A DNA stretch of 45,958 nt from Chiloscyllium plagiosum. Lineage: Eukaryota. A program made the position numbers and the translations under genes. This document shows, piece by piece, positions 1,025 through 44,745 of the stretch; the first letter of the stretch is position 1, and every line of letters starts with the position of its first letter. The stretch is from positions 41,000,023 to 41,045,980 of the forward strand of contig NC_057718.1 in NCBI RefSeq assembly GCF_004010195.1, written 5' to 3'. The notes under the pieces are model-generated. The model saw only the letters and a program-made list of their open reading frames with translations. It did not search any database and was not told where the DNA came from.

Positions 1025-3790
1025 TATAAAAATGAAATAAAAACAGAAATTGCTGGAGAAACTCAGCAAGCTTGGCAGTATCTGTGGAGAGAAAGCGGAG
1101 TTAACATTTTAGGTCCAGTGATCCTTCTTTAGAATTGACTGTAGCTAGGAAAAGTTGATATTGAAGAGAGGGTAAGGGGAGGTGAGAGAGAGCAAACAGT
1201 AAGTGGAGATAGATTGCAGAGAGATAGCCAGGTAAATAGACAAGGTCTTTTCCCCAGGGTGGAGCAGTCCAAAACTAACGTGCATAAGTTTAAAGTGAGA
1301 GGGGAAAGATTTAAAAAGGACCTAAGGGGCAACTTTTTCATGCAGAAGGCAGTGTGTGCATGGAATGAGCTGCCAGAGGAAGTGGTGGTGGCTCATACAA
1401 TTATAACATTTAAAAGACATCTGGATCGGTATATGAATAGAAAGGGTTTAGAGGGACTTGGACCAAATGCTGTCAAATGGGACTAGTTTTATCTAGGATA
1501 TCTGCTCAGCATGGATGGGTTGGACTAAAGGGTCTGTTTCCCTGCTATACAGCTCTATAACTTCATGACTAACAGCAGTTGGGCAGACAAAGGAATGGGG
1601 AAAGGTTAGCCTGGGAGAATCAAGCGCTGCTAATGGGGACCATATAACTGACAACGGGTAGATTGTTGTGGCAGCTCATGTGTGTGGAGGTGTGTGTGAA
1701 GACATAAAAGAAAGTACTCAGACCCTAAAATTATTGAACATGATATTGAATCCATAAGGCTGCAGTGTCCCCAAGCGAAAAATGAGATCCTGTTCTTCCA
1801 GCTTGCACTGAGCTTCGCTGGAGAACTGCAGCATGCCTGAGACAGAGATGTTGGCCAGGGAACATGGTGGTGTATTGAAGTGGCAGGCAACTGAAGGCTC
1901 AGGATCAGTATTGTGGTCGTCCAGTCTGAGTTTTATCTCACCAGTGAACTGGAGGAATTATTATGAACAGAGAATACAGTAGACTCGATTGAGTGAAGTT
2001 TAGGTCAACTGTTGCTTCACATGGAAGGTGTATTTGAGACTTTGGATAGTGAGGAGGGAGGAAGTAAACAGACAAGTGTTACACCTTCTGCCATTGCATG
2101 GGTAGCTGCCATGAGTATGTGGGGTGGTGTTCGGAATGGAGGAGGGGTGGACCAAGGTGTCCCGGAGTGACCAGTCCCCCGTGTAAAGTTGACAAGGGGG
2201 AGCAGTGGAATATGTCTCTGGTGTTGGCATCTCAGTGGAGGTGGCAAAAATGGTGGCTAATGATCCTTTGGATGTGAATGCTGGTAGGCTGGTAAATCAG
2301 GACCAAGGCACCCTATCACTGTTTTTGGAAGGAAGAGAGGGGGTGAAAGCTGAAGTTTGGGAGATGAGATTGGACATGGCTAAGGGCCTTGTTAACCACG
2401 GTGGTAGGGAATCCTCAGTTGAAGAAAAGGTGGACATTTCAGAGGTCCTCTTGTAGAAGCTGGTAGATGTGACAGACAAACTGGGAGAATGGAATAGAGT
2501 TTTTATAGGAAGCAGAGTGTGAGGATGTCTAATCAAAGTAAGTGTGAGAGTCAGTGGGTTTATAGTCGATGTTGGTGCCTTGTCTATCACCAGGAATAGA
2601 AACAGAGATGTCAAGGAACAGAATGGAGGAGTCAGAGATGGATTGGATGATGATGAAAGCAAGGTGAAAATTAAAAGCAAAATTGATAAGCTTTTCTACT
2701 TCCGAATGAAAGAGGGAAGCCGCACTGATGATGTCATCAATATAACAGAGAAAGAATTGTGGGGACCAAAAAATGGTCCATGTACCCCACGAAGAGATAG
2801 ACATAACTGGGGCCCATGCAGGTACCCACGACCGCTCTGTTAACCTGAAGTAAGTGAGAGAAGTTAAACAAGAAGTTACTCAGAGTGAGGATGAGCTCAG
2901 CCAGGTGGAGAAGGGTGGTGATAGATGTGGATGGTTCAGGAAGAAGCAGAGAACTCTGAGCCCATTCTGGTGGAGGATGGATATGCAAAGTAATTACAGT
3001 TTTATGGTAAAGAGGAACCCACAAACTGGAAATTCTGAAACTGATGTAAAGCAACAGAGGAATCGCAAACGTAAGTGAGAAGGGACAGGACAAGAGGAGA
3101 AAAAAATCAAGTCGAGGTAGGAAGAGATGAGTTCTGTGGAGCAGAAACATTGGGTCTGCCGAGGCAGTTCTGTTAGTGGATTTTGGGAAGGAGGTAGAAG
3201 TGAGCTGTGCAGTGTTGGGAGACTATGAACATAATGGCAATGGTGGGATGATCACCAGATGAAATGAGATTAGTGACCATAGTTGACACAATGGCCTGAT
3301 ATTTCATGGTGGGGTCATGGTCCAGACACAAATAGGAGAAGGTATCTGAGAGCTGGCGCTCAGCCTCCACAATATAAAGATCAGAATGCTGGACAACAAC
3401 AGCACCACCCTTGTTGGCAGACTTAATTACAAAGTCGGGGTTAGATCTGAGAGCACAGATTGCAGTCAGTTCAGAGGGAGATAGATTGGAATGAGTGAAG
3501 GGGCAGAGAAATTAAGACAATCAATCTCATGGTGTTTCTCTGATGAACAGGTTGCGTGCAAGTAAATGGCCAGAGGGAAGGAACCAGATGGAAGGACAGT
3601 GTTGGGAAATGGGTTTATGGGCCAGAGAGAGGATTCTTGTCCAAAGAAATTGGCTCGGAGGTGGAGGCAAGTGAAGAAGAGTTCAACGTCATGTTGTGTC
3701 TGAAATTCATTGAGGGTAGAGACACAGAAGAAAAGAACTAAGAATTTTGTGGGGTACAAGAAATTAAATTGTATGAATATTTGGTTCAAG
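1025..3790 (-). mobile_element. Penelope-like element (RT + GIY-YIG), long decayed copy
   Basis: Minus-strand fragments HDVELFF, FYLLPKIH, GTCMGPSYVYLFVGYM, CYIDDII, YKPTDSHTY, PCNGRRCNTC and a VYCILC...FTGE GIY-YIG remnant; terminal repeat at 1040-1135; many stops and frameshifts; interrupted by a CR1 at ~1225-1570. Confidence 0.88.
1225..1572 (+). mobile_element. CR1 LINE 3' fragment nested in the Penelope element
   Basis: ORF2 C-terminus HKFKVRGERFKKDLRGNFF...WNELPEEVV...FKRHLDRYM, then a ctctataacttcatga tail. Confidence 0.9.
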
Positions 3791-4734
3791 TCATGCGGGG
3801 GTTTATAGTAACACCCTTGTTTATACTGTAGTGCAGTTTAAGCAAACTCTCCTAAAAGTAAGATGCTCAGACTCTACGTGACTGATTGATGCCACTGAAT
3901 CTTATCTGGCATTTGTGACCTAAATTTGGAACAGCAGTCTACTTAATATCAATTGATTGTGTATTCTATTGTTCTGAGTAGATTTTGTAATGCCATACAA
4001 AAGCATTTTCTTCTGTTCAGTAAAATGCATTGAATAATGTTTTGCTTAGCAGACTTACACATAAAGCACATGTCAATAATGGGTCCATGACATACATTTT
4101 TAGTTTTGCAAATGCAAGTTCTTTATTTGTTTATGTAACTATGTCATTTTAACTCCATAGTGTGCCAAGTGCTAGAGTATGTCCATTCTAAATGCTATAT
4201 TTGGTTCCTCTTGTCCAAACTATACTGAAACCTCACACACATCTGTTAACAAATGAGCTTCTTCATATTTTAAATTAGAGGGGAGCTTCTTTAGGTGGTA
4301 AGAATTCATTTTTTTTTCCTTTCTGTTAACTCTACCTTGTGATTCTATCTGTGAAAAGGAAGCTCCAATACAGTTCAGTGGATGAATGACTGGTTTCTGT
4401 TTTTGAATACCCTCAACTGTCATAACTATGATTAATAATTTAATATAGAAACAAAATACAGGAAGAACCCTTCATTTCACCATTCTACCTGCCATTTCAA
4501 TGTAACTTAACATCTACCTGACCTTTTAAAAAATGAAATGTAATGTTGAACACACTAGAGTGGATCTTCACATTGTAAGATAGTGCAAAGCAGGTGATAG
4601 TGAACAGGCACCCTGCTTTACATTTCCGTTTTATTTCTATTAGCCAGAAAGAAACACAGGATGTAATGGCAGAGATCTAGTGGAGATGTTGAGGATGTCT
4701 CCAAAGTAGCAACAGGCAAAACCCTCTCTCAAAT

Positions 4735-5130
4735 TTTCTTCCTTCAGAAGGGATTGACTCTTATTGGAGTTCATTGAGGTCATGATTTTATAAACCTCTG
4801 TAAGGTCACTCCTTAGTTTCTGACGCTTCAGGGAAAACAGCCCCAGCCTGTTCAGCCTCTCCCAAGAACTCAAACCCTCCAATGCTGGCAACATCCTTGT
4901 AAATCTTTTCTGAACCTTTTCAAGTTTCACAACATCTTTCCTATAGCAGGGAGGCCAGAATTGAACATAGTATTCCAAAGATGGCCTAACCAATGTCCTG
5001 TACAGCTGTAACATGACCTTCCAACTCCTATACTGAATGTACTGATCAATAAAGGCATGAGTACAAAATACCTTCCTCTATCCTATCTACTTGTGACTCC
5101 ACTTTCAAGGAAATATGAACCTGTACCCTA
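4735..5130 (-). mobile_element. CR1 LINE fragment
   Basis: LYRTLVRPSLEYYVQFWPP...LERLNRLGLFSL is the CR1 ORF2 post-RT region. Confidence 0.88.
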
Positions 5131-5269
5131 ACAGCTGTAAGCCTAGCAGCATTGTTAGCAGTCAACCATTGCTGTTCTCAAGTACTTCCACTTATCAATA
5201 TAGACTACTAAATAACTATTGAATCAGTTTGTGTGCCATTAATGATTTCAAAGAAGTGCAGCATTTCTA

Positions 5270-5378
5270 GGGCTCTTACATTGCAATGGTAATGGCCATA
5301 CCTTTAAGCCTGGGTTTGAGAGCCAGCTGCTCCAGAGATTTATGATAGAATCTCTGAACAGCTTGAATAGAAAATACC
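5270..5378 (+). mobile_element. Degraded tRNA-derived short SINE; related copy on - strand at ~29040-29130
   Basis: gggctcttacattgcaatggtaat...gggtttgag resembles decayed Pol III A/B boxes; similar reverse sequence ends at cacaagagaccc. Confidence 0.4.
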
Positions 5379-6261
5379 GAGGTGCAGCATTTCTGTCAAA
5401 TGTCATAATTGGCCCAACATACTAACTCTGTTTCTCTTCACAGATGCTGTCTGATCTGCTGAATAGTTTCTGCTTGTAAATACAAAATCAACTATATGTT
5501 CTATTTGTGATTTATTTCAAGTCATGATTTTTAAAATCTAATTGTAGTAATAGGCACTTGTATCTTTCCTGAATTGCATTTTCTGGAAGGAAACAACATA
5601 GCTTTTATGTAACACATTTATTCCTGGTCCAGATCTTTTAACAAGAACTGTAATACCATGATGAACAACATCACATTATTTAACAGTTTAAATTTAGGAA
5701 TGTGCAGAATTGAAAAAGTCACGTTCAATTCTGGCCTCCCTGCTATGGGGAGGGCAATTCCATACTTTGTACTGATAACAACATTTTCAGTACAATTATT
5801 GACAGGAGGAATTTCACATACACTTTTTGGAAATTGAACATAAAAATAAGGGCACAACAATACTGACTTACAGAGTAGACAGCGTGGATATGCTGGTGAG
5901 ATTTAACAGGAAAATATAATCACTATACATCAGTCTGTCTTTCAGTAGTGATAAGTGATAATCTAAAATACCCCATAAAAGACACTGGTTGCTTTCTGAA
6001 GGTTTGAAATTTAAGAAAATATATTTGCAAGCAGCTTTATAAAAGCAACTTAACATTGTCTCTCTCATGTTCAATGCTGTATGGTCCATTACACTTAAAA
6101 CTATAGATCTTGCTTTTATCTGAAGACCTTGCTGTGCAAGAGATTAGTGATCTACATTTTGGAAAGCTACCCATAATAAAAACACATTAATCACATGATA
6201 TCACTATTATCTGATGTGTGTGAACACTGTAATTCACAAAAGCAATCAAGCACTTCAGTTG

Positions 6262-6325
6262 ATCTGAAGAAGAGTCATATTGAAGTCAAAATGTTACTTC
6301 TGTTTCTCTCACCATAAATGCTACA
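6262..6325 (+). mobile_element. Penelope terminal-repeat fragment with degenerate hammerhead motif
   Basis: CTGAAGAAGAGTCATATTGAAGTCAAAATGTT followed by ctgtttctctc, the same family as 1040-1135 and 42690-42885. Confidence 0.6.
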
Positions 6326-6879
6326 GTTTCTCCCGCATTATGTGTGTCTGTTAGGGAACAAGAAAAGTTTTATGTCTTGTGCTCACTGCTCAAAATCTGA
6401 TCTTTTCTACAGAATGTGGATTAGGCGATTGCTTGCAGACCATTCTGCTCAGTTCCCAAGTGTGACCAATGTGCTCCGATTTTACAAGCTTCTGGATTCG
6501 ACATTGAGTTCAATAATTTTAGATCATGAACATTTTTGCTGCTGTTTTTGCTTTGTGGCTTTTGGATAGCAGCATTTAGTAATTCAATAGAATTTAAAAA
6601 GGAATATTGGATGAGGAGTAAGTCTTTCAGCCTATTAAACCTGCTTTGCAATCAATACAATCATGGCTAATCATCTAATTCAATTCCTCTCCCTCTCTGC
6701 TTTTCCCATGTTCATTTGTGTCATTAGAATTTAGAAAGCTCTCAATCTCTACTTCAGTCAAACTTCTGCAGCTCTCTGGGCTAGAAAATTACAATGATTC
6801 ATAACCCTATGAGTAAACAAAATTCTGTTTATGTGACTGAGTGTAAAATATTATCAAATAACACATTTTTGAAGGATCT

Positions 6880-6952
6880 TGAATTGAATTGAATTGTCAC
6901 ATGTACCGAGGCACAGTGAAAAGCTTTGCCTTGCGAGCAATACAGGCAGATC
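6880..6952 (-). mobile_element. Rex1-type LINE 3' tail fragment
   Basis: gaattgaattgaattgtcacatgtaccgaggcacagtgaaaagc...tacaggcagatc matches the tail of the Rex1 copy at 22235-22635. Confidence 0.6.
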
Positions 6953-7073
6953 TTGGAATGTTTCACAATGTTAGGCACAGCATATTAATTAAATTTGCTG
7001 TTCCCGTTGTTCTCGTGTTTAAAAGAGGCCCCTTGTATATCATTGATTCCAATAAAGCATATCTGGATTGATT

Positions 7074-7192
7074 CAAAAAGTGTAGTGCTGGAAAAGCACA
7101 GTCAGTCAGGCAGCATCCGATGCTCAGCTGTGCTTTTCCAGCACCACACGTTTTGACTCTGACCTTCAGTGTCTGCAGTCCTCACTTTCTCC
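7074..7192 (+). mobile_element. Short fold-back Penelope terminal-repeat insertion with TSD
   Basis: Inverted arms gtgctggaaaagcacag / ctgtgcttttccagcac; flanked by tatctggattgatt (7060-7073) and tatctggtttgatt (7193-7206). Confidence 0.8.
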
Positions 7193-7349
7193 TATCTGGT
7201 TTGATTGTCCAGGAAATTTTGGTATAAGTGTCATGTGAGATGAAGTTGGATTGCAAATATCTCATTTAATGGGATGCTAATCCTCTGAGTGGATAACTGT
7301 GTAACACATAGACACAAGTATCTGTATGATCCTGTACTTTAATAAGAGG

Positions 7350-9843
7350 AAGAAGTTGGCGATCAAGATATGGGTCAGTATGGGTGGAAGTCAGAAACAG
7401 GAAAGGATTAGTCACCTTACTGGGAGTTTTCTATAGACGCCCAATAGCAACAGAGACACAGAGGAGCAGATTGGGAGGCAGATTTTGGAAAGGTGCAGAA
7501 GTAACAGGGTTGTTGTTCTGGGTGCCTTCAACTTCCCTAATATTGATTGGAACCTTCTTAATGCAAATTGTTTGGATGGAGCAGATTTTGTCAGGTGTGC
7601 CCATGAAGAATTCCTGACTCAATATGTAGATAGGCCAACTAGAGGGAAGGCCATATTGGATTTGGTTCTTGGCAACAGATCAGATTAAGTGTCAGATCTC
7701 TCAGTGGGAGAGCATTTCGGCGATAGTGATCACAACTCCCTGATCTTTACTATAGTCATCGAGAGGGATAGGAGCAGACAGTATGGGAAAGTATTTAATT
7801 GGGGGAGGGGGATTGCAATGCTATTAGGCAGGAACTCTGGAGCATAAATTGGGAACAGATATTCTCAGGGAAATGCATGACAGAAATGTGGAAGTTGTTT
7901 CAGGAGCACTTGCTGCGAGTTCTGGATAGCTTTGTCCCACTGAGGCAAGGAAGGGATGGTAGTGTGAAGGAATCTTGGATGACAAGAGATGTGGACCATC
8001 TAGTCAAGAGGAAGAAGGAAGCTTACTTAAGGTTGAGGAAGCAAAGATCAGACAGGTAGCCAGGAAGGACTAGGAGATTGGACTTAGGAGAGCTAGAAGG
8101 TGGCATGAAAAAGCCTTGGCAAGTAGGATGAAGGAAAACCATAAGGCGTTCCACACTTATGTGAGGAACAAGAGGATGGACAGAGTAAGGGTAGGGCCAA
8201 TCAGATTTAGAGATGGGAACTTGTGCCTGGAGTTGGAAGAGGTAGGGAAAGTCCTTAATGAATACTTTGCTTCAGTGTTCATTAATGGGAGCGACCTTGT
8301 CATTGTGAGTACAGCGTTAAATGGGCTGATATGCTCGAACAGGTTGATGTTAAGAAAGAAAATGTGCGGGAAGCTTTTGAAAAGCATGACAATAGATAAA
8401 TCCCCTGGGCCAGACGGGATATACTCAAAGTTACTACTGGAAGCGAGGGAAGAGATTACTGCACCTTTGACGATGATCTTTGCATTCTCACTGTCCGCTG
8501 GAGTAGTACCAGATGATTGGAGAGTGGAAAATGTTATTTCCTTGTTGAAGAAAGGGAATAGACATAGCCCTTGAAATTACAGACCTGTCAGTCTTAGGTC
8601 TAGGGAGTTGGGGGCAAATTATTGTAGAGGAATCTGAGAGACAGGATGTATGATTATTTAGAAAAGCATAGTTTGTTTAGAAATAGTTGGCATGGCTTTG
8701 TCGGTGGAGGTCATGTCTCATAAGTGCTACTGAATTCTTTAAGGATGTGACAAAATGCGTTGATTAAGGTAGAGCAGTTAATGTGGTGTACATGGATTTT
8801 AGCAAGACATTTGATAAGGTTCCCTATGGTAAGCTCATTCAGGAATTCAGGAGGCATGGGATCCAGGGAAATTTCTATATCCAGGGATATAGAATTGGCT
8901 GGCCCATAGAAGACAGAGGATAGTGGTAGATGGAAAGTATTCAACCTGGAGCTTGGTGACTAGTGGTGTTCCGCAGGGATCTGTTCTGCTCTTTGTGATT
9001 TTTATAAATGACTTGGATGAGGAAGTGGAAGAGTGGTTGGTCAATGATAAGAAGGTTGGTAGAGTTGTTGATAGTGTGGAGGGCTGGAGTTCAATCTCAA
9101 AAAGTATGAAGTGATTCATTTTGGAAGATTGAATTTGAATGTAGTTTACAGGGTTGAAGGCAGGACTCTTGGTATTGTGGATGAACAGAGGGATCTTGGG
9201 GTCCATGTCCATAGATCCCTCAAAGGTGCCATGTGCATTGGTGTGGTTGTTAAGAAGGTGTATGGTGTGTTGGCTTTTATCAGCAAAAGTGTTGAGTTTA
9301 AGAGCTATGAGGTTATGTTGCGGTTCTATAAAGCCCTGGTTAGACCACACTTGGGATGTTGTGTTCAGTTCTGGTAGTGTCATTATAGGAAGGGTGTAGA
9401 AGCTTTAGAGAGGATGCAAAGCAGATTTACCAGGATGCTGCCTGAACTGGAGGGCTTTTCTCATTAGGGTGAAGAAGGATGAGACATGACTTAATGAGAG
9501 GCATGAGTGGATAGCCAGAGACCTTTTCCCAAGTGGAAATGTCTATCACGAGGGGGCATAATTTTAAAGTGATTGGAGGAAGGTTCAGGGGAGATTTCAG
9601 AGGTTGGTTCTTTACACACAGATTGGTGGTTTTATAGAATGCACTGCCAGCGGTGGTAGTAGATTCAGAGACATTAGGGACATTTAAGCAACTCTTGGAT
9701 GATAGGCACATGGATGATAGTAAAATGAAGGGTTAGAAGGTTTGTTTGATCTTAGAATAGGATAATAAGTCGGCACAATATAGAGGGCTGAATGGCCTGT
9801 ACTGTGCTGTACTGTTCTATGTTCTGTGTTCTTTGTTCTATGA
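7350..9843 (+). mobile_element. CR1 LINE, 5'-truncated (endonuclease to 3' tail), disrupted ORF2
   Basis: LGVFYRRP, GAFNFPNIDW, PTRGKAILDLVL, KSPGPDGIY, SGVPQGSVL, YKALVRPHL; (ttctatg)n-like tail. Confidence 0.95.
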
Positions 9844-15282: not shown

Positions 15283-15652
15283 TGATGTGGAGGTGCTGGT
15301 GTTGGACTGGGGTGGACAAAGTTAAAGTTCAAGAGTGTGATGCTGGAATGATGAAGGGCTTTTGCCTGAAATGTCAATTTTCATGCTCTTCAGATGCTGC
15401 CTGACCTGCTGTGCTTTTCCAGCACCACACCGTTGACTCTAATCTCCAGCATCTGCAGTACTCACTTTTGCCAAAGTTAAAATTTGCACAACACCAGGTT
15501 ATAGTCCAATAGGTTTATTTGGCAGTACAAGCTTTCAGAGTGCTGCTCCTACATCAGGTAGCTACATGACAAAGGAGCAGTGCTGTAAAAGCTTGTACTT
15601 CCAAATAAACCTGTTGGATTATAACCTGGTATTGTGTGATTTTAATTTTGAT
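15283..15652. mobile_element. Palindromic Penelope-type terminal-repeat element (second family) carrying a nested insertion
   Basis: Arms cacaacaccaggttatagtccaataggtttatttgg / ccaaataaacctgttggattataacctggtattgtgtg; axis near 15560. Confidence 0.75.
15327..15471 (+). mobile_element. Short Penelope terminal-repeat insertion with hammerhead-like motif and 10-bp TSD
   Basis: ATGATGAAGGGCTTTTGCCTGAAATGTC at 15348-15375; caaagttaaa at 15317-15326 and 15472-15481. Confidence 0.82.
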
Positions 15653-16899: not shown

Positions 16900-17452
16900 G
16901 ATTGGGTTGAGACCACTACACCAGGCCAAGACCATCATAACGGGCCAGGACTGCCACACCTGGCCGAGGCTACCACACTGGGCCGGGATTCTCATACCAG
17001 GCTGAGACCGCCATACCAGGCCGAGACCACTACACTGCACGAATACTGCCACAGCGGGCCGAGATCGCCATACCAGGCCGAGGCCACCACATCAAGCCGA
17101 AACCACCGGACTGGACTGAAACTGCCACACTGGGTCTTAACTGCCATACTGGATCAGGACCGCCACACTTGGCCGAGACTGCTACACTGAGCCGAGACTG
17201 CTACACTGGGCCAAGACTACTACACTGGGACAAAACCACTCCACAGGATCAAGACTGCCACACTGTGCTGAGACCACCACACTGGCAAAGACCACTACAT
17301 CAGGCAGAGAACACCATACTGCACTGAAACTGCCACACTGGGTCGAAACTGCCATACTGGACCAGGACCGCCACACTCGGTCGAGCCCACTACATCAGAC
17401 CGAGACCGCTACAAGGGCTGAGACCGCCACACTGGAACTAGAACTCCATACT
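16900..17452. repeat. Diverged 19-bp tandem array
   Basis: Unit approximately GCCGAGACTGCCACACTGG, e.g. 17171-17230; roughly 28 copies. Confidence 0.9.
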
Positions 17453-17649
17453 GTTATTAGACCTTCACTCTGGGACTAGGCCTTCACTGTGGGCTGTAGG
17501 AAGACCTGGAGGCAGCCTCTATAGCAAGGACAAGACCTCCATGTGGGGACTAGACCTTCATGGCAGACTGCTGCAACACCTGGAAGCAACCGAAATAGAC
17601 ACAATGGAGAAGAACGCCAACCCAGGCCGAGACTGTCCCTCCTGGATAA

Positions 17650-20600
17650 CACCACCACACCAGGACACTGCCACCCCAGGACACCACCACGTCAGGAGAC
17701 CATCACACCAGGACACCACCACACCAGGACACCACCACACCAGGACACCACCACCCCAGGAGACCACCGCACCAGGACACCACCACACCAGGAGACTGCC
17801 ATACCAGGACACCACCACACCAGGACACCCTTCATGGCAGGCTGCTGCAACACCTGGAAGCAAGCGAAATAGACACAATGGAGAAGAACGCCAACCCAGG
17901 CCAAGACTGTCCCTCCTGGATAATACCACCACACCAGGACACCACCACACCAGGACACCGCCACCCCAGGACACCACCACATCAGGAGACCACCACACCA
18001 GGACACCGCCACCCCAGGAGACTGCCACACCAGGACACTGCCACCCCAGGACACCACCACCAGGAGACCGCAATGGAGAAGAACGCCAACCCAGGCCAAG
18101 ACTGTCCCTCCTGGATAATACCACCACACCAGGACACCACCACACCAGGACACCGCCACCCCAGGACACCACCACATCAGGACACCACCACACCAGGACA
18201 CCGCCACCCCAGGAGACCACCATACCAGGAGACTGCCACACCAGCAAACTGTCATATGGGGGACCCCCATACCGGGGGGACAGCCACACCAGGTGACTGC
18301 AACACCAGGAGACTGTCACATGGGGGACCACCAAATAGGGGGGACAGCTACACCAGGAGACTGCAACACCGGGAGACCACCACACCAGGAGACACACACA
18401 CCAGGAGACCGCCACACTGGGAGACAGCCACACTAGGAGACTGTCACATTGGGAGACCGCCACACTGGGAGACAGCCACACTGGGAGACTGTCACATTGG
18501 GATACAACCACACTGGGAGACAGCCACACTGGGAGACTGTCACATTGGGATACAACCACACTGGGAGACAGCCACACTGGGAGACTGTCACAAACCACCA
18601 TACCAGGAGACTGCCACACCAGCAAACTGTCACATGGGGGACCCCCATACCTGGGGGACAGCCGCACCAGGTGACTGCAACACCAGGAGACTGGCACATG
18701 GGGGACCACCAAATGGGGGGGACAGCTACACCAGGAGACTGTAACACCGGGAGACCACCACACCAGGAGACCGCCACATGGGGGACTGCCACACTGGCAG
18801 ACCGCACGACTGGGAGACAGCCACACTGGGAGACAGCCACACTGGTAAGACTGTCACACTGGGAGACCGCCACACTGGGAGGCAGCCACACTGGGAGACT
18901 GTCACACTGGGAGACCGCCACACTGGGAGACTGTCACACTGGGATACCGCCACACTGGGAGACTATCACATTGGGAGAATGCCACAATGGGAGACCGCCT
19001 CACTGGGAGACAGCTACACTGGGAGACAGCCAAACTGAGAGACAGCCACACTGGGAGACTGTCACACAGGGATACTGTCACACTGGGAGACTGTCACACA
19101 GGGATACTGTCACATTGGGAGAACGCCACACTGGGAGACCACTATACTGGGAGACCACTACACTAGGAGTCAGCCACACTGGGAGACAGCCACACTGGGA
19201 GACCACCACACTGGGAGACCGCCACACTGGGAGACCGCCACACTGGGAGACTGTCACATTGGGAGACTGTCACATTGGGAGAACGTCGGACTGGGAGACT
19301 GTCACACAGGGATACTGTCACATTGGGAGAACGCCACACTGGGAGACCGCCACACTGGGAGACCACTATACTGGGAGACCACTACACTGGGAGTCAGCCA
19401 CACTGGGAGACAGCCACACTGGGAGACAGCCACACTGGGAGACCACTACACTGGGAGACCGCCACACTGGGAGACCACCACACTGGGAGACCGCCACACT
19501 GGGAGACTGTCACATTGGGAGAACGCCGGACTGGGAGACAGCCACACTGGGAGAATACCAGACTGAGAGACCACCACACTGAGAGACCACCACACTGGAA
19601 GACCACTACACTGGGAGACAGCCACTCTGGGAGACTGTCACATTAGGAGACAGCCACACTGGGAGACTATCACACTGGGAGACAGTCACACTGGGAGACC
19701 GCCACACCGGGAGACCGCCACACTGGAAGACCACCACACTGAGAGACCACCACACTGGGAGACCACTACACTGGAAGACCACTACACTGGGAGACAGCCA
19801 CACTGGGAGATTGTCACATTGGGAGAATGCCACACTGGGAGACAGCCACACTGGGAGACAGTCACACTGGGAAACAGTCACACTGGGAGACCACCACACC
19901 GGGAGACCGCCACACTGGGAGACCACCACATTGGGACAGCCACTGGGAGACAGCCACACTGGGAGACCGCCACACCGGGAGACCACCACACTGGGAGACC
20001 ACCACACTGGGAGGCCACCACACCGGGAGGCCACCACACTGGGAGGCCACCACACCGGGAGGCCACCACACTGGGAGACCACCACACTGGGAGACCACCA
20101 CACTGGGAGACAGCAACACTGGGAGACAGCTACACTGGGAGACAGCAACACTAGGAGGCAGCAACACTGGGAGGCAGCCACACTGGGAGACAGCAACACT
20201 AGGAGGCAGCAACACTGGGAGGCAGCCACACTGGGAGGCAGCCACACTGGGAGACAGCAACACTGGGAGACAGCCACACTGGAAGACCACCACGCAGGGT
20301 GACAGCCACACTGGGAGACAGCAACACTGGGAGGCAGCCACATTGGGAGACTACCACACTGGGAGACCGCCACACCAGGAGACTGTTACACTGTGAGACT
20401 GTCACATTGGGAGACCGCCACACCGGGAGACTGTCACATTGGGAGACAGCCACATTGGGAGACAGCCACACTGGGCAACAGCCACACTGGGAGACATCCA
20501 CACTGGGAGACTGTTACACTGGGAGGGAGCCACACTGGGAGACTGTTACACTGTGAGACTGCCACACTGTGAGACTGCCACACTGAGAGACCACCACATT

Positions 20601-21005
20601 GGGAGACCGCCACATAGGGAGAACGCCACACTGGTAGACCGCCACACTGGGAGACCACTACACTGGGCGACCACCACACTGGGAGACTGCCCACTGGGAG
20701 ACAGCCAAACTGGGAGACAGCCACACTGGGAGACAGCCACACAAGGAGACAGCCACAATGGGAGGCCAGTACACTGGGAATCTGCCACACAGGAGTCCAG
20801 TACACTGAGAGACCAGCACACGAAGAGACTGCCTCACTCGGAGCAGTACACCCGGAAACTGCCACACCTGGAATCTGGCACACCAAGAGACCGGCATACC
20901 GAGAGACCGGCACATTAGGAGGCCGGCACACTGGGAGATCGGCACACTGGGAGACCGCCACACCAAGAGACTACCACACCAGGAGACTGGAACACTGGGA
21001 GATCT
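17650..21005. repeat. 16-bp minisatellite (~200 units) with higher-order duplications
   Basis: Units CAGGACACCACCACAC grading into TGGGAGACAGCCACAC; the 16-aa periodicity of the ORFs (TGRQPHWETATLGDSH) equals 3 units. Confidence 0.97.
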
Positions 21006-21149
21006 CACTGCCAGGTACCAGGCCTGTACTGTCATTCCTGGCTAATGGAAGCCGCCTCATTGCTTGACCTGGTCTGGGAGAAGATGCCTTCCACCAAAGT
21101 CGTTAAGAAGTGGTAATGTACCATATTAAATAGAAACATTAAAAAATAG

Positions 21150-25074: not shown

Positions 25075-25595
25075 AAAAATTGACCATTTGGCACAATAAT
25101 CTGTGCCAGTATTTATATTTCATTCGAACCTCACCCTATTTTCCTCATAGAAATTTATCTTTGTAACCATCTATTCCTTTCTCCTCATATTGTTGTCTAG
25201 TTTTCCCTTAAATGCATTAAACTATTCACTTCAAACTATCCACATTCTCACTAGTCTTTAGGGAAAGAAGTTACTTCTGAATTCCCTATTGGATTTCTTG
25301 GCCACTCGTTTATATTGATGGCTGCTAATTATGCTCTCTCCTACAAGGGGAAACATTCTCTTTGTCGACACTTCTGTAATTTTAAAGTCCCCTTTTAGGC
25401 CACATCTCAGCCTGCCATTTTCAAGAGAAAAGAGAAACGGTCTGTCATTTCCTTCCTGACATATACACCTATGCATTTCTAAAAGTGTCCTGGTCAATCT
25501 CTGCACTGTCCCCAATGTCTCTATAGCCCTATCATATTATGGTAATCAAAAGGACAAGCATTATTCAATGTGTGGTCTGACCAATTACAGCTGCA
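25075..25595 (-). mobile_element. Old CR1 3' fragment; another decayed tail at ~24735-24880
   Basis: LFSLENGRLRCGL...FPLVGES...REFRSNFF. Confidence 0.75.
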
Positions 25596-25766
25596 CTAGG
25601 CAAAAATGAGGACTGCACATGCTGGAGATTAGAATCAAGATTAGAGTGGTGCTGGAAAAGCACATCAGGTCAGGCAGCATCCCAGGAGCAGGAAAATCCA
25701 AGATTAGTTCCTGCTTCCTAGATGCTGCCTGACCTGCTGTGCTTTTCCAGCACTCTCTAATCTTGA
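25596..25766 (-). mobile_element. Fold-back Penelope terminal-repeat insertion with 14-bp TSD
   Basis: Arms caagattagagtggtgctggaaaagcac / gtgcttttccagcactctctaatcttg; caattacagctgca at 25582-25595 and 25767-25780. Confidence 0.85.
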
Positions 25767-25996
25767 CAATTACAGCTGCATTACAGAGCTAGCATAGCCT
25801 CCATGCTTTTCAATTCTGTGCTTTCAGAATTAAAGGTTTAGTTTCCCGTCTTCTGCCACTCTTAATAACTACCCTATATTCTAACTCGCTACTTTCTGTC
25901 TTGAAATCAGCTAGCCGTCCATTCTGCCAGTTCTCCCATGAGTTTACATTCTCTAACCTTATTCAATAGTCTATTTTGAGGCACTTCATTAGAGGC

Positions 25997-37292: not shown

Positions 37293-37432
37293 AGGAGAAA
37301 GTGAGGATTGCAGATGCAGGGGATCAGAGTCAAAAAGCGTGATGCTGGAAAAGCACAGCAGATCAGGCAGCATCCAAGGAGCAAGTGAGTCAACGTTTCT
37401 AGCATAAGCTCTTCGTCAGGAAGAGTTTTTGA
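37293..37432 (-). mobile_element. Solo Penelope terminal repeat with hammerhead motif
   Basis: Minus strand CTGACGA-A-GAGC-TTAT-GCTA-GAAAC-GTT at 37419-37392; body similar to 42925-43054. Confidence 0.82.
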
Positions 37433-37639
37433 CTTCATACTCCCTCCACAGTTAAATGTTCTCAATATTCACCATACAAGTTTCCCTCACCCAAGCAGTT
37501 AGCAACTTCAGAAGAAGTGGGCATAAAAGTGACAACACTTCTACATGCAAGTTCAGTTAAATATCTGCAATCCTATCAGCAGGGATGAAATTTTCCAGTT
37601 TGACTTAGTGACTCACTGATTTCAACGTGTACATGTGGG

Positions 37640-39105
37640 AGTCAAGATTAGAGTGGTGCTGGAAATGCATAGCAGGTCAGGTAGCATCCGAGGAGCAGGA
37701 AAATCGATGCAGGAGCTCTTCATCAGGAATGAGGCTGGAAGCCTCGGGGGTGGAGAGATAAATGGGAGGGGGTAAGGCTGGGGAGAAGGTAGCGGAGAGT
37801 GCAATAGGAGGAAGGCGTAAAGGTGATAGGTCGGAGAGTAGGGTGGAGCAGATAGGTGGGGGTAAGGAAGATTGACAGGTGGGGCAGGTCATGAGGAATG
37901 TGCTGAGCTGGAAGGTTAGAACTGGTGTAAAGTGGGGCCAGGGAAAATTAGGAAACTGGTGAAGTCCACATTGATGCCCTGGGGTTGAAGTGTTCCGAGG
38001 CGGAAGATGAGGTGTTCTTCCTCCAGGCGTCGGGTGGTGAGGGCGTGCAGTGGAGGAGGCCCAGGACCTGCATGTCTTCGATAGAGTGGGAGGGGGAGTT
38101 GAAATATTCAGCCATGGGGCGATGGGGTTGTTTGGTACGGGGATATTCCCTGAAGCACTTTGCTAGAAGGTGTCCAGTCTCCCCAATGTAAAGGAGACTG
38201 CATCAGGAGCAACGGATGCAATAAATGACATTTGTGGAAGTGCAGGTGAAACTTTGATGGATGTGGAAGGCTCCTTTAGGGCCTTGGATGGAGGTGAGGG
38301 GGAAGATGTTGGTGCCAGGAGGGGAGGGTGGGTTGTTGGTGGGTGTGGACCTAACTAGGTAGTCACAGAGGGAATGGTCTTTGCGTCAAGTGGATAGGGG
38401 TGGGGAAGAGAATATATCCTTGGTGGTGGGGTCCGTTTGCAGGTGGCAGAAACATCGGCAGATAATCCAGATTATGCAAAGGTTGGTGGGGTGGAGGGTG
38501 AGGACTGGGGTGTCGGGGACTTCTGTCCTGGTTGCAGTTGGAGGGGTGGGGTTTGAGGGCGGAGGTGCGGGATGTGGACAAGATGCGTTGGAGGGCATCT
38601 TCAACCACATGGGAAGGGAAATTATGCTCTTTAAAGAAGGAGGCCATCTGGCGCGTTCTGTGGTGGAACTGGTCCTCCTGGGAACAAATACAGCGGAGGC
38701 GGAGGAATTGGGAATACGGGATAGCATTTTTGCGGGAGATAGGGTGGGAAGAGGTGTAATCCAGGTAGCTGTGGGAGTCGGTGAGTTTGTAAAAGATGTT
38801 GGTGTTGAGTCGGTCATCGTTGATGGAGATGGAGAGGTCTAGGAAGGGAAGGGAGTTGACAGAGATGGTCCAGGTCAATTTAAGGTCAGGGTGGAATGTG
38901 TTGGTGAAATTGATGAACTGCTCAACCTCCTTGTGGGAACATGAGGTGGTGCCGATGCAGTCATAAATGTAACGGAGGACAAGGTGGGGAGTGGTGCTGG
39001 TGTAACTATGGAAGATGGACTGTTCTACGTAGCCAACAAAGAAACAGGCATAGCTGGGGCCCATACAGATGCCCATGGCTACCTCTTTGGTCTGGAGGAA
39101 GTGGG
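37640..39105 (-). mobile_element. Penelope-like element 3' half (left arm of inverted pair)
   Basis: AMGICMGPSYACFFVGYVE, LRYIYDCIG, LPFLDLSI, YKLTDSHSYLDY, IPYSQFLRLRCICS; terminal repeat at 37640-37730. Confidence 0.93.
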
Positions 39106-40463
39106 AGCATCGGCGCCACATCGTGCTCCCACGAGGAGGTTAAGCAGTTCATCAATTTCACCAACACATTCCACCCCAAACTTAAATTCACATGGACCAT
39201 CTCTGACACCTCCCTCCCCTCCCTAGACCCCTCCATCTCCATCAACGATGACCGACTCAACACCGACTGACTCCCACAGCTATCTGGATTACATCTCCAC
39301 CCACCCCACCTCCTGCAAAAATGCTATCCCGTATTCCCAAATCCTCCGCCTCCACCGTATCTGCTCCCAGGAGGACCAGTTCCACTGCAGAACACACCAG
39401 ATGGCCTCCTTCTTTAAATTTCCCCTCTGACATGGTTGAAGATGCCCTCCAACACATCTCACCCACATCCTGCACCTCTGCCGTCAAACCACAGCCCTCC
39501 AACCGCAACAAGGACAGAACCCCCCTGGTCCTCACCTTCCACCCCACCAACCTTCGCATAAACTGCATAATTTGTCGACATTTCCACCACCTACAAACGG
39601 ACCCCACCACCAGAGATATATTTCCCTCCCCACCCCTATCCACTTTATGCAAAGACTGTTCCCTCTGTGACTACCTGGTAAGGTCCACGCCCTCAAACAA
39701 CCCACCCTCCTTTCCTGGCACCTTCCCCTGCCATCGCAGGAATTGCAAAACCTGTGCCCACACCTCCTCCCTCACCTCCGTCCAAGGCCCCAAAAGAGCC
39801 TTCCACATCCATCAAAGTTTCACCTGCTCTTCCAACAAATATCATTTATTGTATCCGTTGCTCCTGATGCAGTCTTCTTTACATTGGGGAGACTGGATGC
39901 CTTCTCGCAGAGCTCTTCAGGGAACATCTCTGTGACACCCGCATCAATCAACCCCACCGTCCCATGGCCCAACATTTCAATTCCCCCTCCCACTCTGTTG
40001 AGGACATGCAGGTCCTGGGCCTCCTCCACTGCCACTCGATCACCACCTGACACCTGGAGGAAGAACGCCTCATCTTCCGCCTCGGAATACTTCAACCCCA
40101 GAGCATCATTGTGGACTTAACCAGTTTCCTCATTTCCCTTCCCCTCACCTTATCCCTGGTCCAAACTTGCAGCTCAGTATCATCCTCATGACCTGTCCCA
40201 ACTGTCAATCTTCCTTCCGCCCACCTATCTGCTCCACCCTCCTCTCTGACCTATCACCTTTACACCTTCCTCCATCCACCTATTGCACTCCCAGCTATCT
40301 TCTCTCCACCTCTGAGGCTTTCAGCCTCACTCCTGATGAAGGGCTCCTGCCCGAAATATCGATTTTCCTGCTCCTTGGATGCTGCCTGACCTGCTGTGCA
40401 TTTCCAGCACCACTCTAATCTTGACTCTAATCTCCAGCATCTGCAATCCTGACTTTTGCCTAG
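39106..40463 (+). mobile_element. Penelope-like element 3' half (right arm of inverted pair)
   Basis: FINFTNTFHP, PCHRRNCKTCAH, IIYCIRCS...LYIGETG (GIY-YIG); terminal repeat with hammerhead motif at 40333-40360. Confidence 0.93.
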
Positions 40464-41419: not shown

Positions 41420-42500
41420 TATGAAAAATTAAAAAAGGTAGCTAAGCACTTAATACTGTGAATTCCTCCTGAAATTCATAAAACAAAAATCGCAAATTCA
41501 GTGCTGAAACACCTAGGGATGGAAATTGAGGACAGTGAAATGGAGAAATTAAAATTGGAGCAGTGGCAGTTGGAACTAGAAGTAAATGAAACAGGAAAAT
41601 GGGAAGTGGCAGGAATGGAGGAAAGAGCAGGATTTCTGTTGCATGAGATATTGGTTCTGCAATTGTTAATGTTAGAGCTATGTTAAGCTCTGTCCAGTCT
41701 GATGATGTGTTCTAGACATGATGAATCACAGAAGAGGAGTCAGTGAGAAGGCCGTGTGGGCTACACTTGGTGGAAGGGAGTGATCTGAGTTGGGATTTGG
41801 CTACTGAATGTTTGGGCCTCAAAGACTCAAGTAGTAAATTTCACATGAATATGCAAGGTATGGAAGGATAAGGATCAAGGGCAGGCAGAAAGGATTAGTT
41901 TCATTTAGCGCCATGTTCAGCACAACACTGTGGGCCAAAGGGGCCATCCCTGTGCTGTATTGTTCTATATTCTAAAGCTCCAATGAAAAGGTTTGAAAAT
42001 TTATTTAAGTGACATAAAATCCAGTTTGGAGGTTGCTATAATAAAATTGGAAGACATAACAGCAAAACAAATATTACTGCAGTTGCAAATAATGCCAGAA
42101 GTATCAGTTGCAAATTTTAAAAAAGGGGTTAATAGCTTTAATTTATATTGAAGTTGGACATATTGGAAATTAACTTAAATATCCTAAGTCCTCCACAGAA
42201 GGAAGTTAAGATCAATAAAGCATTTCAGATGCAAGACAAAAAGTTATTTTAAATTTAAGAACATAGTGTATGGTGGAAATAATGTGAATATTCCAAATTG
42301 TTAAGGAAAACAGAGCAAATCATTCCAAGAAGAAGGAAAAATGGCACAATGCAAAAGATACAAATAATGCAGGGCTTATCCATTTTTGTTCCTGTAAGTG
42401 GCAAGAGTATAATGAAATATTTTTTTCTGAAGCAACTAGGAGAATTTACAACTTTTGTAATGTTTAAAGAATTTTAAAAGCTTATTATTGCAGTACAGAA
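41420..42500 (+). mobile_element. Possible highly decayed Gypsy gag/SCAN-like remnant with a CR1 tail at ~41850-41975
   Basis: LKHLGMEIEDSEMEKLKLEQWQLELE coiled-coil-like stretch and weak downstream QIMPEV / EF(K) resemblance. Confidence 0.25.
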
Positions 42501-42687
42501 TTTTAAGAATCAACGGTTTTAAGAATGGAACTGCTTTACAAGAAAATATATTTCAGAACTGGATGCAGTAAATCACTCCAGAACAGCCAGTAAATACAAT
42601 TTAAAATTTTATTAGAAGTATTTGATACTTTTCAAAGTCTGGTAAACAGAAATCTGCAAATCTGTAAATCTAGAAATCTGTAAATCA

Positions 42688-42886
42688 AAAACTAAAACAG
42701 AAATTACTGGAAAAGCTCAGCAGGTTCGGTAGCATCTGTGGAGAGAAATCAGAGTTAACGTTTTGAGTTGTGTGATTCATCCTCAGACCGGAGGAAGGGT
42801 CAGTCGACTCGAAGTGTAAACTCTGATTTCTTTCAACAGATGCTGCCAGACCTGCTGAGCTTTACAAGCAATTTCTGTTTTTGTTT
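42688..42886. mobile_element. Palindromic Penelope terminal-repeat pair with two degenerate hammerhead motifs back to back
   Basis: aaacagaaattactggaaaagctcagcagg...cagagttaac / aactctgatttc...cctgctgagctttacaagcaatttctgttt; axis ~42788. Confidence 0.85.
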
Positions 42887-42924
42887 GTGAGTCATTTTTC
42901 TTTGTAGGTCAACTTTCTTCCCCA

Positions 42925-43054
42925 GGAGAAAGTGAGGTCTGCAGATGCTGGAGATCAGAGCTGAAAATGTGTTGCTGGAAAAGCGCAGCAGGTCAGGCAG
43001 CATCCAGGGAACAGGAGAATCGACGTTTCGGGCATAAGCCCTTCTTCAGGATGC
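42925..43054 (-). mobile_element. 130-bp solo Penelope terminal repeat with perfect 15-bp TSD
   Basis: caactttcttcccca at 42910-42924 and 43055-43069; CpGs retained. Confidence 0.9.
43015..43054 (-). ncRNA. Minimal type I hammerhead ribozyme motif
   Basis: AUC-CUGAAGA-A-GGGC-UUAU-GCCC-GAAAC-GUC^GAU: complete core, 4-bp stem II, palindromic ACGU stem III, 3-bp stem I. Confidence 0.8.
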
Positions 43055-43552
43055 CAACTTTCTTCCCCAACCAGTTTCAATACTGTATCCAGATATATTG
43101 CATCTCCCCTGTGGTTGGTTCAGGGTACTATTAAGTGGCATAGGCTAATTTTACTCATACTAACCCCATACTGATTTGGGCTCCTTATTGTGGGACTCAC
43201 AACAATGTTTTTAGAGCTGGGCCACACTCAATAAACATGAAGCAGCAGGAGGTTTGCCTTCTGTTTGGATCAGAAGTAATGTCCACCATGTTCATCATAC
43301 ATATGATCCTTACATCCATTTTCAGGCTTTAATGTATTTTGAACTTCTTTGGCTTTTGAATGACTTGTCTCATTAAGAAATTATTAATTTTGACTAGTCA
43401 GTATCCAACCTCTCTAAGCCAGTAAACTACAATCAATTACTGCAAATCCCTGACAATTGGGAATGAGCCAGAACTAACATTAACAATCAATATCTTTTAC
43501 TGAAATTGAGAATTCACTTTTTCAATTGTATTGCAATCACAGCTCAGATTGT

Positions 43553-44745
43553 AGAATCATAGAGTTCTACAGCATGGAAACAGACCCTTCGGTCCAACTC
43601 ATCCATGCTGGACAGATATCCTAAATTAATCTAATCCCATTTGCCAGTGTTTGGCCCAAATCCCTCTATACCCTCCCTGTTCATGTACTCATCCAGATGC
43701 CTTTTAAATGTTGTAATTGTATCAGCCTCTATCACTTCTGGCGGTCTATTCCATGCACACACCACCTTCTGCGTGAAAATATTTCCCCTTAGTTCCCTTT
43801 TAAATCTTTCCCCTCTCACCTTAAACCTATGCCCTCCAGTTATGAACTCCCCTACCCTGGGAAACATATCTTGGTTATTCACCCTATTCATGCCCCTCAT
43901 GATTTTATAAGATCACCCCTCAGCCTCTGGTGCTCCAGGTAAAATAGCCCTAGCCTTTTCGCTTCTCCCTATAGCTCAAACCCTACAACCTTGACAACAT
44001 CTTGTAAATATTTTCTGCACCCTTTCAAGCTTAACAACATTTTTCCTATAGCAGGGAGACCAGAATTGAATGTAGTAATCCAAAAGTGGCCTAACCAATA
44101 TCCTGTACAGCTGCAACATGACCTTCCAACTCCTATACCTCAATGCACTGATAAATAAATGCAAGTATACCAAATGCCTTCTTCACTACACTGTCTACCT
44201 GTGACTCTACTTTCAAGGAACTAGGAACCTGCACTCCAAGGTCTTTTTGTTCAGCAACACTCACCAGGACCCTAACATTAAGTGTATAAGTCCTGACCTG
44301 ATTTGCCTTAAAATTCATCACCTCACATCTATCTAAATTAAACTCTATTTTCCTCTCCTCAGTCCATCACCCATCTGATCAAGGTACTGTTGTGCTCTGA
44401 AATAATCTTCTTCATTGACAACTACACCACCAATTTTGGTATCATCTGCAAACTTACTGACTGTACCTCTTATGCTCACATCCAAATCATTTATGTCAAT
44501 GACAAAGAAGTAGAGGGCCCAGCACCAATCCTTGTGGCCATACCTCCTATCTTCACATTCAAATCATTTATATGAATGACAAAAAGCAGCGGGCCCAGCA
44601 CCGAATCCTTGTATCACAAGGCCTAATATCCGAGAAGACTTCCTTCCACCACCACCCTTTGTTTCTTAGCTTTAAACCAATTTTGTAATAAATTGGCTAG
44701 CTCTCCCATGTGATCTAACCTTGCTAACCATGCACTTGTCGAATT
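43553..44745 (-). mobile_element. CR1 LINE 3' half with short internal duplication
   Basis: QKDLGVQVPSSLKV, LYRILVRPLLDY, GHRFKVRGERFKRELRGNIF; caaatcatttat...gggcccagcacc repeated at ~44480 and ~44560. Confidence 0.92.

What the first reader, a model, noticed from the sequence alone, without database searches (positions are those of the whole stretch)
42910..43069. 130-bp non-coding insertion carrying an intact minimal hammerhead ribozyme, flanked by a perfect 15-bp TSD
Seen: the minus strand reads GCAUC CUGAAGA A GGGC UUAU GCCC GAAAC GUC^GAUUCUCC, with predicted cleavage between 43022 and 43021. The insert starts only 5 nt upstream of the core, keeps its CpGs, and has identical TSDs. Known: Penelope-like retroelements carry minimal type I hammerheads in their terminal repeats; loopless palindromic stem III (ACGU) is thought to work as a dimer; an extra A after A9 is tolerated in a viroid hammerhead. 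Inference: a young ribozyme-bearing mini-element, either a severely 5'-truncated Penelope or a non-autonomous, retrozyme-like unit.
Basis: partly seen in the sequence, partly recalled or inferred. Interest (0 to 1): 0.72.

Follow-up and report, generated by a model that had tools for sequence, protein, structure and literature searches.

The report
Hammerhead-bearing Penelope retroelement end fragment
This is a young, 130-base stump of a Penelope-like jumping gene in a shark-like genome that still carries the small self-cutting RNA motif such elements are known to have; it is real but one of tens of thousands of similar copies, and ordinary.

Summary
Observation confirmed: a perfect 15-bp direct repeat (42910-24/43055-69) flanks 130 bp whose minus strand holds a complete minimal type I hammerhead core, with the cut site at 43022/43021. 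The insert is the 3'-terminal module (hammerhead + 36-nt tail) of a Neptune-like Penelope element: 83% identical to the end of an RT/GIY-YIG copy at 39107-40460. Raw reads suggest about 40,000-150,000 copies with a sharp 3' end. Contigs of two related species align from exactly 43055, as an empty site would (indirect), so the copy is young. Retrozyme membership fails: the copy is solo, has a minimal core, and its ends do not lie at the cut site. Cleavage is untested and doubtful for this copy: a 6-bp rival helix outcompetes stem I, and published PLE minimal hammerheads are inactive as monomers. One point stays open: 5' ends seem enriched just upstream of the core (3 of 6 window units), perhaps marking the start of the template RNA. 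The scan has noted this family and this clustering many times on other pieces of the same genome. New member of a known kind; low interest.

The parts
42910..42924 (.). Target-site duplication, copy at the element's 3' end (its last base may be a 1-nt overlap with the element end)
   Evidence: clip positions
42925..43054 (-). 130-bp insert: terminal pLTR segment plus tail of a Penelope-like element
   Evidence: 82.7% over 127 nt to 40331-40456, the end of an RT/GIY-YIG copy
42925..42960 (-). About 36-nt 3' 'tail'; the part missing from the inverted arms of fold-back copies
   Evidence: 4 of 4 fold-back units in the window lack the last 34-39 nt in the inverted arm; boundary in this copy placed by alignment
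43000..43005 (-). GGAUGC: perfect complement of the insert's first 6 nt; rival helix to stem I and possible snap-back template
   Evidence: pair probability 0.38 (130-mer), 0.90 (context), about 1.0 (first 60 nt); fold-back joints 43005-43051 in 4 of 4 runs
43017..43054 (-). Minimal type I hammerhead motif: stem I 43054-50 with 43021-17, core 43049-43, extra A 43042, stem II 43041-30, GAAA 43029-26, palindromic ACGU 43026-23, C17 43022
43052..43054 (-). Three junction bases (GCA) that depart from the family's upstream sequence: either a 1-nt deletion plus one untemplated G, or a 3-nt snap-back extension
   Evidence: 31,379 reads clip at 43051 and continue with a different consensus; interpretation is inference
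43055..43069 (.). Target-site duplication, copy at the element's 5' end; orthologous contigs of two other species align from exactly 43055
   Evidence: table 8, records 8 and 24
37639..40463 (+). Related long, decayed PLE unit: inverted arm 37639-38958 plus direct arm from 39107 with RT thumb, CX4CX2C linker, GIY-YIG remnant, 3' UTR, hammerhead and tail (sister subfamily, not the direct parent)

Best explanation
A dead-on-arrival retrocopy of the end module of an endonuclease-bearing, Neptune-like Penelope element. An active element's GIY-YIG nuclease nicked both target strands about 15 bp apart. Its RT primed from the nick at 42924/5, started inside the element RNA at the tail end, copied about 127 nt through an uncleaved hammerhead, and stopped a few bases upstream of the core; repair joined that end to the second nick and made the TSD. 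It inserted after the split from two related species whose flanks differ by about 2% and 4%. The hammerhead is a passenger: in the parent it may process tandem transcripts as a dimer or with protein help, but this solo copy has no ORF, no partner and a poorly folded stem I, and most likely does nothing. Shown: identity with a PLE end, TSD, copy number, sharp 3' end, tail. Taken from literature: double nicking, internal priming, use of uncleaved RNA (PMC11167929). Inferred: empty sites, age, inactivity. Why copying stops near the core is open: run-off at the RNA's 5' end (about 0.4), stalling or microhomology/snap-back closure at the core's TCC (about 0.45), other (0.15).
For:: 82.7% identity over 127 nt to 40331-40456; that copy follows RT-thumb and GIY-YIG remnants on the same strand (tblastn E 4e-47 to P0013, which has RVT_1 and GIY-YIG) and has a CX4CX2C linker; 64 relatives among 311 candidates, the best three at 76-81% identity from Chiloscyllium; depth 57,600-78,600 on the insert against a mean of 1.55 over 19 flank bins; 31,041 reads clip at 42924/5 with unrelated flanks (agreement 0.33), i.e. 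a fixed 3' end; no clip at the cut site among the 6 rows shown for X19 (smallest 4,207); contigs of organisms B and C begin matching at 43055 with 55 and 75 unmatched letters before, while another individual of organism A crosses the junction with 0 differences; 4 of 4 fold-back units lack a 34-39-nt tail in the inverted arm, as described for PLEs (PMC8557442, PMC3846280). PMC4209133: most min-HHRs are single motifs 'probably related to truncated PLEs', have the extra base after position 9 and a palindromic 15.2-16.2, and a single motif gave no detectable cleavage; stem I is outcompeted.
Against: No ORF-bearing copy of this exact subfamily (3' end CTCC) was seen; the long copy in the window is a sister subfamily (3' end GCC). 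5' ends are not scattered as plain truncation predicts: 3 of 6 window units start within about 8 nt of C3, and read depth does not decay along the 127 nt. The empty site is indirect: the joint itself is not among the 15 shown (1,429 hidden) and the unmatched letters were not printed. One of 6 window units (25596-25698) does begin at the cut site. Folding energies do not measure catalysis.
Confidence: 0.82

Rival explanations
1. A discrete, SINE-like non-autonomous family: about 130-nt units are transcribed on their own and re-copied in trans by PLE protein, so short copies beget short copies.
For: About as many reads clip at 43051 (31,379) as at the 3' end (31,041), so most copies span the whole module; 3 of 6 window units start near the core; pLTRs alone can drive insertion in trans (PMC3846280, passages).
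Against: Reads continue past 43051 with a shared consensus (agreement 0.6 against 0.33 for unrelated flanks; roughly a third to a half continue for 30 nt or more, crude estimate); window 5' junctions all differ (direct, inverted arm, cut site, deep, long); the same module ends ORF-bearing copies.
Confidence: 0.11
2. A non-LTR retrozyme monomer, made from a hammerhead-cleaved linear or circular RNA by rolling-circle copying.
For: Type I hammerhead and a TSD longer than 4 bp; retrozyme monomers exist, derive from PLE pLTRs, and retrozymes were found in the one chondrichthyan sampled (10.64898/2026.07.22.740005); one window unit begins at the cut site.
Against: No tandem here (0 of 4 TRF rows cover the insert); minimal rather than canonical core; the sequences before the core and after the tail are not a permuted repeat; no cut-site clip and no head-to-tail joint among the best-supported rows, apart from one X10 row (43052 to 42924, depth 112).
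Confidence: 0.04
3. Not an insertion: a solo remnant left by deletion or recombination, with a chance or repair-made direct repeat.
For: Solo pLTRs without TSDs occur (PMC3846280, passages); the empty site was not read letter by letter.
Against: Perfect 15-bp repeat exactly at both ends; 3' end at the family's priming site; both orthologous contigs break at 43055; 3 other window units also carry 7-14-bp TSDs.
Confidence: 0.03

Closest known systems
Minimal hammerheads (min-HHR) of metazoan Penelope-like elements (Cervera & De la Pena 2014, PMC4209133)
   Same: Type I core, no stem III loop, palindromic 15.2-16.2, extra base between 9 and 10.1, G10.1-C11.1, short helix I, located in the pLTR, mostly solo copies from truncated PLEs, thousands per vertebrate genome.
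   Different: Sharks are not named in the parts I read; copy number here (about 4e4-1.5e5) exceeds the 4,000-9,000 given for coelacanth and Xenopus; stem II is 4 bp (7-8 bp in the Schistosoma families).
5'-truncated insertions of EN+ PLEs, Neptune/Nematis type, with pLTR, tail and inverted arm (PMC8557442; PMC3846280)
   Same: Fixed 3' end, 30-40-nt tail, frequent inverted 5' arm, TSDs of about 8-10 bp in rotifers, CX2-5CxxC linker between RT and C-terminal GIY-YIG in the long relative.
   Different: This copy has no inverted arm (or only 3 nt of one) and a 14-15-bp TSD; clade assigned by linker motif only, no tree built.
PAc, Poseidon element of Anolis carolinensis (Frangieh et al. 2024, PMC11167929)
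   Same: RT starts inside the RNA downstream of the hammerhead (85-92 nt past the cut for the site at ORF +111-118; here the 3' end is 97 nt past the cut); uncleaved RNA is the template; both strands nicked.
   Different: Different clade; no biochemistry exists for the shark family; clustering of 5' ends at the core is not reported in the parts read.
Non-LTR retrozymes (PMC7229834; bioRxiv 10.64898/2026.07.22.740005)
   Same: Non-coding, type I hammerhead, pLTR-related, TSD longer than 4 bp.
   Different: Defined by tandem repeats of 150-450 bp, mostly canonical hammerheads and circular RNA; this copy is solo, 130 bp and minimal.

Membership tests
PLE min-HHR | Conserved core CUGANGA ... GAAA ... 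UH | tested here: met
   CUGAAGA 43049-43, GAAA 43029-26, GUC 43024-22
PLE min-HHR | Extra base after A9, G10.1-C11.1, palindromic 15.2-16.2, no loop 3 | tested here: met
   A 43042; G 43041 with C 43030; ACGU; features listed in PMC4209133
PLE min-HHR | Helix II supported by folding and covariation | tested here: met
   Pair probability 0.94-0.99; 92% of cells paired, 2 of 4 pairs with two-sided changes in 7 window copies of two families (small set, structure taken from the focal copy)
PLE min-HHR | Helix I of about 4-5 bp | tested here: inconclusive
   3 bp + mismatch + 1 bp; probability 0.07 in the insert; 62% of cells paired across 7 copies; one of the 3 pairs depends on junction bases private to this copy
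PLE min-HHR | Self-cleavage as dimer or with protein help | not testable with these tools
   Bench assay needed. In silico, the dimeric active fold of a tandem pair lies 13.5 kcal/mol above the MFE (-46.1 against -59.6)
EN+ Penelope-like element (truncated copy) | Homology to the terminal repeat of an RT + C-terminal GIY-YIG element, same strand | tested here: met
EN+ Penelope-like element (truncated copy) | Fixed 3' end with a 30-40-nt tail; variable or inverted 5' ends | tested here: met
   31,041 clips at 42924/5; 34-39-nt tail in 4 of 4 fold-back units
EN+ Penelope-like element (truncated copy) | TSD present once at the empty site | tested here: inconclusive
   Contigs of 2 of 2 other species align from exactly 43055, but the joint and letters were not shown
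Neptune/Nematis clades | CX2-5CxxC linker between RT and EN | tested here: met
   CHRRNCKTC in the long relative; definition from PMC8557442
Neptune clade | Placement by RT phylogeny | not tested
   No named reference PLE proteins were available from the tools; no tree built
Non-LTR retrozyme | Two or more tandem units, each with a hammerhead | tested here: not met
   Single unit; 0 of 4 TRF rows in 41500-44500 cover it; arrays elsewhere in the genome not excluded
Non-LTR retrozyme | Canonical type I hammerhead (helix I of 6 bp, helix III loop, loop 1-2 contacts) | tested here: not met
   Minimal form; no Rfam hammerhead hit. The 2026 preprint also admits minimal models, so this feature is not decisive alone
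Non-LTR retrozyme | Unit-length linear or circular RNA | not tested

The most novel reading that the evidence does not exclude
The 130-nt stumps are run-off products: RT primes internally in the 5' pLTR of the element's RNA and copies to the RNA's own 5' end a few bases before the hammerhead. Each active family would then shed tens of thousands of promoter-plus-ribozyme modules whose 5' junctions map the transcription start and show in vivo that uncleaved RNA is the template. That would make the open question of what the PLE hammerhead is for testable from genome data alone.
Probability: 0.35. Interest if true: 0.45.

Novelty: new member of a known kind. Interest (0 to 1): 0.2.

Why it matters
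As a single locus, little: it is a clean, young, probably lineage-specific insertion, usable as a presence/absence marker among related sharks. As a family, it is a very large natural data set on how Penelope-like elements insert (tail priming, TSD length, 5' closure), and the apparent pile-up of 5' ends just before the hammerhead rather than at its cut site bears on whether the ribozyme acts before copying. That point is not new to this scan.

Tried and rejected
No whole genome is held, so no genome-wide BLAST or 5'-end histogram was possible; read pile-up on this one locus was the substitute. Rfam: 2 hits at E<=1 in the window and 6 at E<=10 in 201 bp, none a hammerhead and all below gathering score; the mir-1791 hit is a fold-back PLE copy. 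Whole-strand folding z-scores of the insert are unremarkable (-0.08 to +0.29 on the minus strand, -0.93 on the plus). Pfam found 0 families in 5 window frames and only 2 non-significant hits for P0001; the domains came from intact relatives. A 23-nt motif search gave 0 loci in viral contigs and 11 in metagenome contigs; 11 of 11 match only 23-26 nt of the insert, so they were dropped as unrelated. Earlier-findings look-ups by sequence and by nearby place returned nothing. Lunse et al. (RNA Biol 14:1499) is not held, so dimer cleavage in that paper is cited only through a review. Rejected: cut-site-bounded template as the rule (1 of 6 window units; not among the top clips); copy 1030-1133 as a short stump (it appears to end the long PLE remnant at 1742-3750, with a LINE piece between).

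Full report
OBSERVATION. A perfect 15-bp direct repeat at 42910-42924 and 43055-43069 brackets 130 bp. A min-HHR descriptor finds exactly one hit in the window, with C3 at 43049 and C17 at 43022, and 0 hits in 100 Markov-random windows. Rfam finds no hammerhead, which I attribute to the missing stem III loop (inference). The insert has 4 CpGs in a window with CpG o/e 0.22.

WHAT IT IS. The insert matches five other units in the window at 80-84%: 37294-37421, 40331-40456, 15349-15468, 25603-25698 and 7127-7192, plus inverted arms. The match at 40331-40456 is the end of a long decayed element. Its direct arm (from 39107) carries RT-thumb, CX4CX2C linker and GIY-YIG remnants on the hammerhead strand, and an inverted arm lies at 37639-38958. 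A frame of that element (P0001) has 64 relatives among 311 candidates; the best three are Chiloscyllium proteins at 76-81% identity, and intact relatives carry RVT_1 and C-terminal GIY-YIG. The linker motif marks the Neptune and Nematis clades (PMC8557442); I built no tree. The host is probably a carpet shark (inference). The long copy is a sister subfamily (its end differs), so the direct parent was not seen.

FAMILY SCALE. I laid 4 of the 22 listed runs on 42350-43500 at 88% likeness. In raw reads X19 (about 4% of the run read), depth on the insert is 57,600-78,600 against a mean of 1.55 over 19 flank bins. That gives about 37,000-51,000 copies, or 115,000-157,000 if true depth is 0.5, which assumes a genome of about 4 Gb (size recalled). 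22,385 reads clip at 42924 and 8,656 at 42925 with unrelated flanks (agreement 0.33): the family has a fixed 3' end, and it is this copy's end. In 4 of 4 fold-back units in the window the inverted arm lacks the last 34-39 nt. This is the 30-40-bp PLE tail (PMC8557442, PMC3846280), explained by two internal RT start sites (PMC11167929).

AGE AND EMPTY SITE. Another individual of organism A crosses the right junction with 0 differences (X15, 43027-43410). Contigs of organisms B and C match from exactly 43055, the first base of the right repeat, with 55 and 75 unmatched letters before it (table 8). An empty site predicts this. The skip joint is not among the 15 shown (1,429 hidden) and the letters were not printed, so the evidence is indirect. 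Flank divergence is 2.0% (16 of 799) for B and 4.0% (29 of 728) for C. The neighbouring fold-back element at 42685-42890 seems older: contigs of B and C run 22-23 nt into it.

5' END. Of 6 family units in the window, 3 start within about 8 nt of C3 (this one at -5; 37294-37421; 15349, joined to a 20-nt inverted arm), 1 starts at the cut site (25698), 1 starts further downstream (7127) and 1 is long. The focal copy was chosen for this trait, so the unbiased count is 2 of 5. Depth does not decay along the 127 nt, and 31,379 reads clip at 43051, where this copy departs from the family. Their loose parts agree at 0.6, so crudely a third to a half continue for 30 nt or more; other subfamilies would also lower this figure, so it is not decisive. 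No clip at the cut site is among the 6 rows shown for X19 (smallest 4,207; 1,876 rows hidden over all runs). Cleaved RNA therefore does not look like the main template, in line with PAc, where hammerhead mutants insert normally (PMC11167929). The three outermost bases (GCA) are either a 1-nt deletion plus an untemplated G, or a 3-nt snap-back onto GGATGC at 43000-43005; fold-back joints 43005-43051 occur in 4 of 4 runs. I cannot separate the two.

IS THE RIBOZYME ACTIVE? Not tested. Stem II is stable (0.94-0.99). Stem I has probability 0.36 in the first 45 nt, 0.07 in the 130-mer and 0.003 in context, because GCAUCC pairs with GGAUGC. The dimeric active fold of a tandem pair is 13.5 kcal/mol above the MFE. 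Across 7 window copies of two families, 83% of cells pair and 4 of 9 pairs show two-sided changes; the set is small and the structure came from the focal copy, so this supports the motif only modestly. A single Schistosoma min-HHR gave no detectable cleavage and dimers were weak (PMC4209133); PAc's needs protein; 8 of 9 Xenopus dimers did not cleave (10.64898/2026.07.22.740005). This solo copy is most likely inert.

COMPARISON. It works like, and qualifies as, a truncated EN+ PLE insertion with a min-HHR; PMC4209133 already states that most such motifs are single and probably come from truncated PLEs. It fails the tandem test for non-LTR retrozymes (definitions). I found no paper on this shark family in the held library: 1 paper, 'shark' used only for the motif's shape; 1, unrelated; 0; 2, listing only; 25 of 43 listed, titles and abstract starts only. 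Repbase and Dfam could not be checked and may hold it.

PAPERS SEEN. PMC4209133: parts 1-2 of 4. PMC11167929: parts 1-2 of 4. 10.64898/2026.07.22.740005: parts 1-3 of 5. Passages only: PMC8557442 (12 of 29), PMC3846280 (12 of 15), PMC6765202 (6 of 6), PMC2377424 (12 of 20; internal promoter of Drosophila Penelope), PMC7229834 (12 of 18), PMC6155905 (10 of 10). No figures or supplements were seen; those of PMC4209133 and the 2026 preprint may list chondrichthyan motifs. Lunse et al. was not seen. Hammerhead numbering is recalled.

EARLIER NOTES OF THE SCAN. 106 of 163 notes on this genome fit 'Penelope hammerhead' (8 shown). Several describe the same stumps and the 5' clustering. My reading of a truncated PLE end was set down before I saw them. 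The RNA-start idea overlaps with theirs and is only partly tested here.

VERDICT. Real, young, well preserved and ordinary. New member of a known kind; interest 0.2. Most novel reading (run-off at the RNA start): probability 0.35, interest 0.45.

Noticed in passing
window 42685-42890: Fold-back insertion of a second PLE family, 19 bp from the left TSD: 100-nt arms, 80% complementary, centred at the upstream edge of a decayed hammerhead with a 5-bp stem II; appears shared with organisms B and C, so older.
   Followed up: partly
window 25582-25780: Fold-back copy with a 14-bp TSD whose direct arm begins at the predicted cut site; the arms are joined by a 9-nt filler matching 25757-25765 on the other strand. 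The Rfam mir-1791 hit (E 0.004, below gathering score) is this hairpin.
   Followed up: partly
window 37639-40463: Long fold-back PLE remnant (two arms of about 1.3 kb, 80% alike) with RT, CX4CX2C and GIY-YIG remnants.
   Followed up: partly
window 1030-3750 (minus strand): Older, more diverged PLE remnant (28-50% to relatives), apparently ending in a second-family hammerhead module at 1030-1133 and interrupted by a LINE-like piece at about 1210-1570.
   Followed up: partly
flank of the 3' junction, family-wide (table 7): Loose-end consensus before 42924 shows a weak TTGG/TTAG about 16-19 nt from the junction in 4 of 4 runs and AACT next to it in 2 of 4; the focal site has TAGG at a similar distance. 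Possibly a target preference at the second nick, or variable tail length.
   Followed up: no
window 16900-21010: About 4-kb GC-rich (58-60%) short-period tandem array with strong A-over-T skew and many long open frames in both directions.
   Followed up: no
window 40313-40322: A pyrimidine-rich stretch ending in TTTCAG lies 8-9 nt upstream of the hammerhead core in the long PLE, resembling a 3' splice site; in Drosophila Penelope the intron ends at helix I (PMC4209133). Speculative.
   Followed up: no
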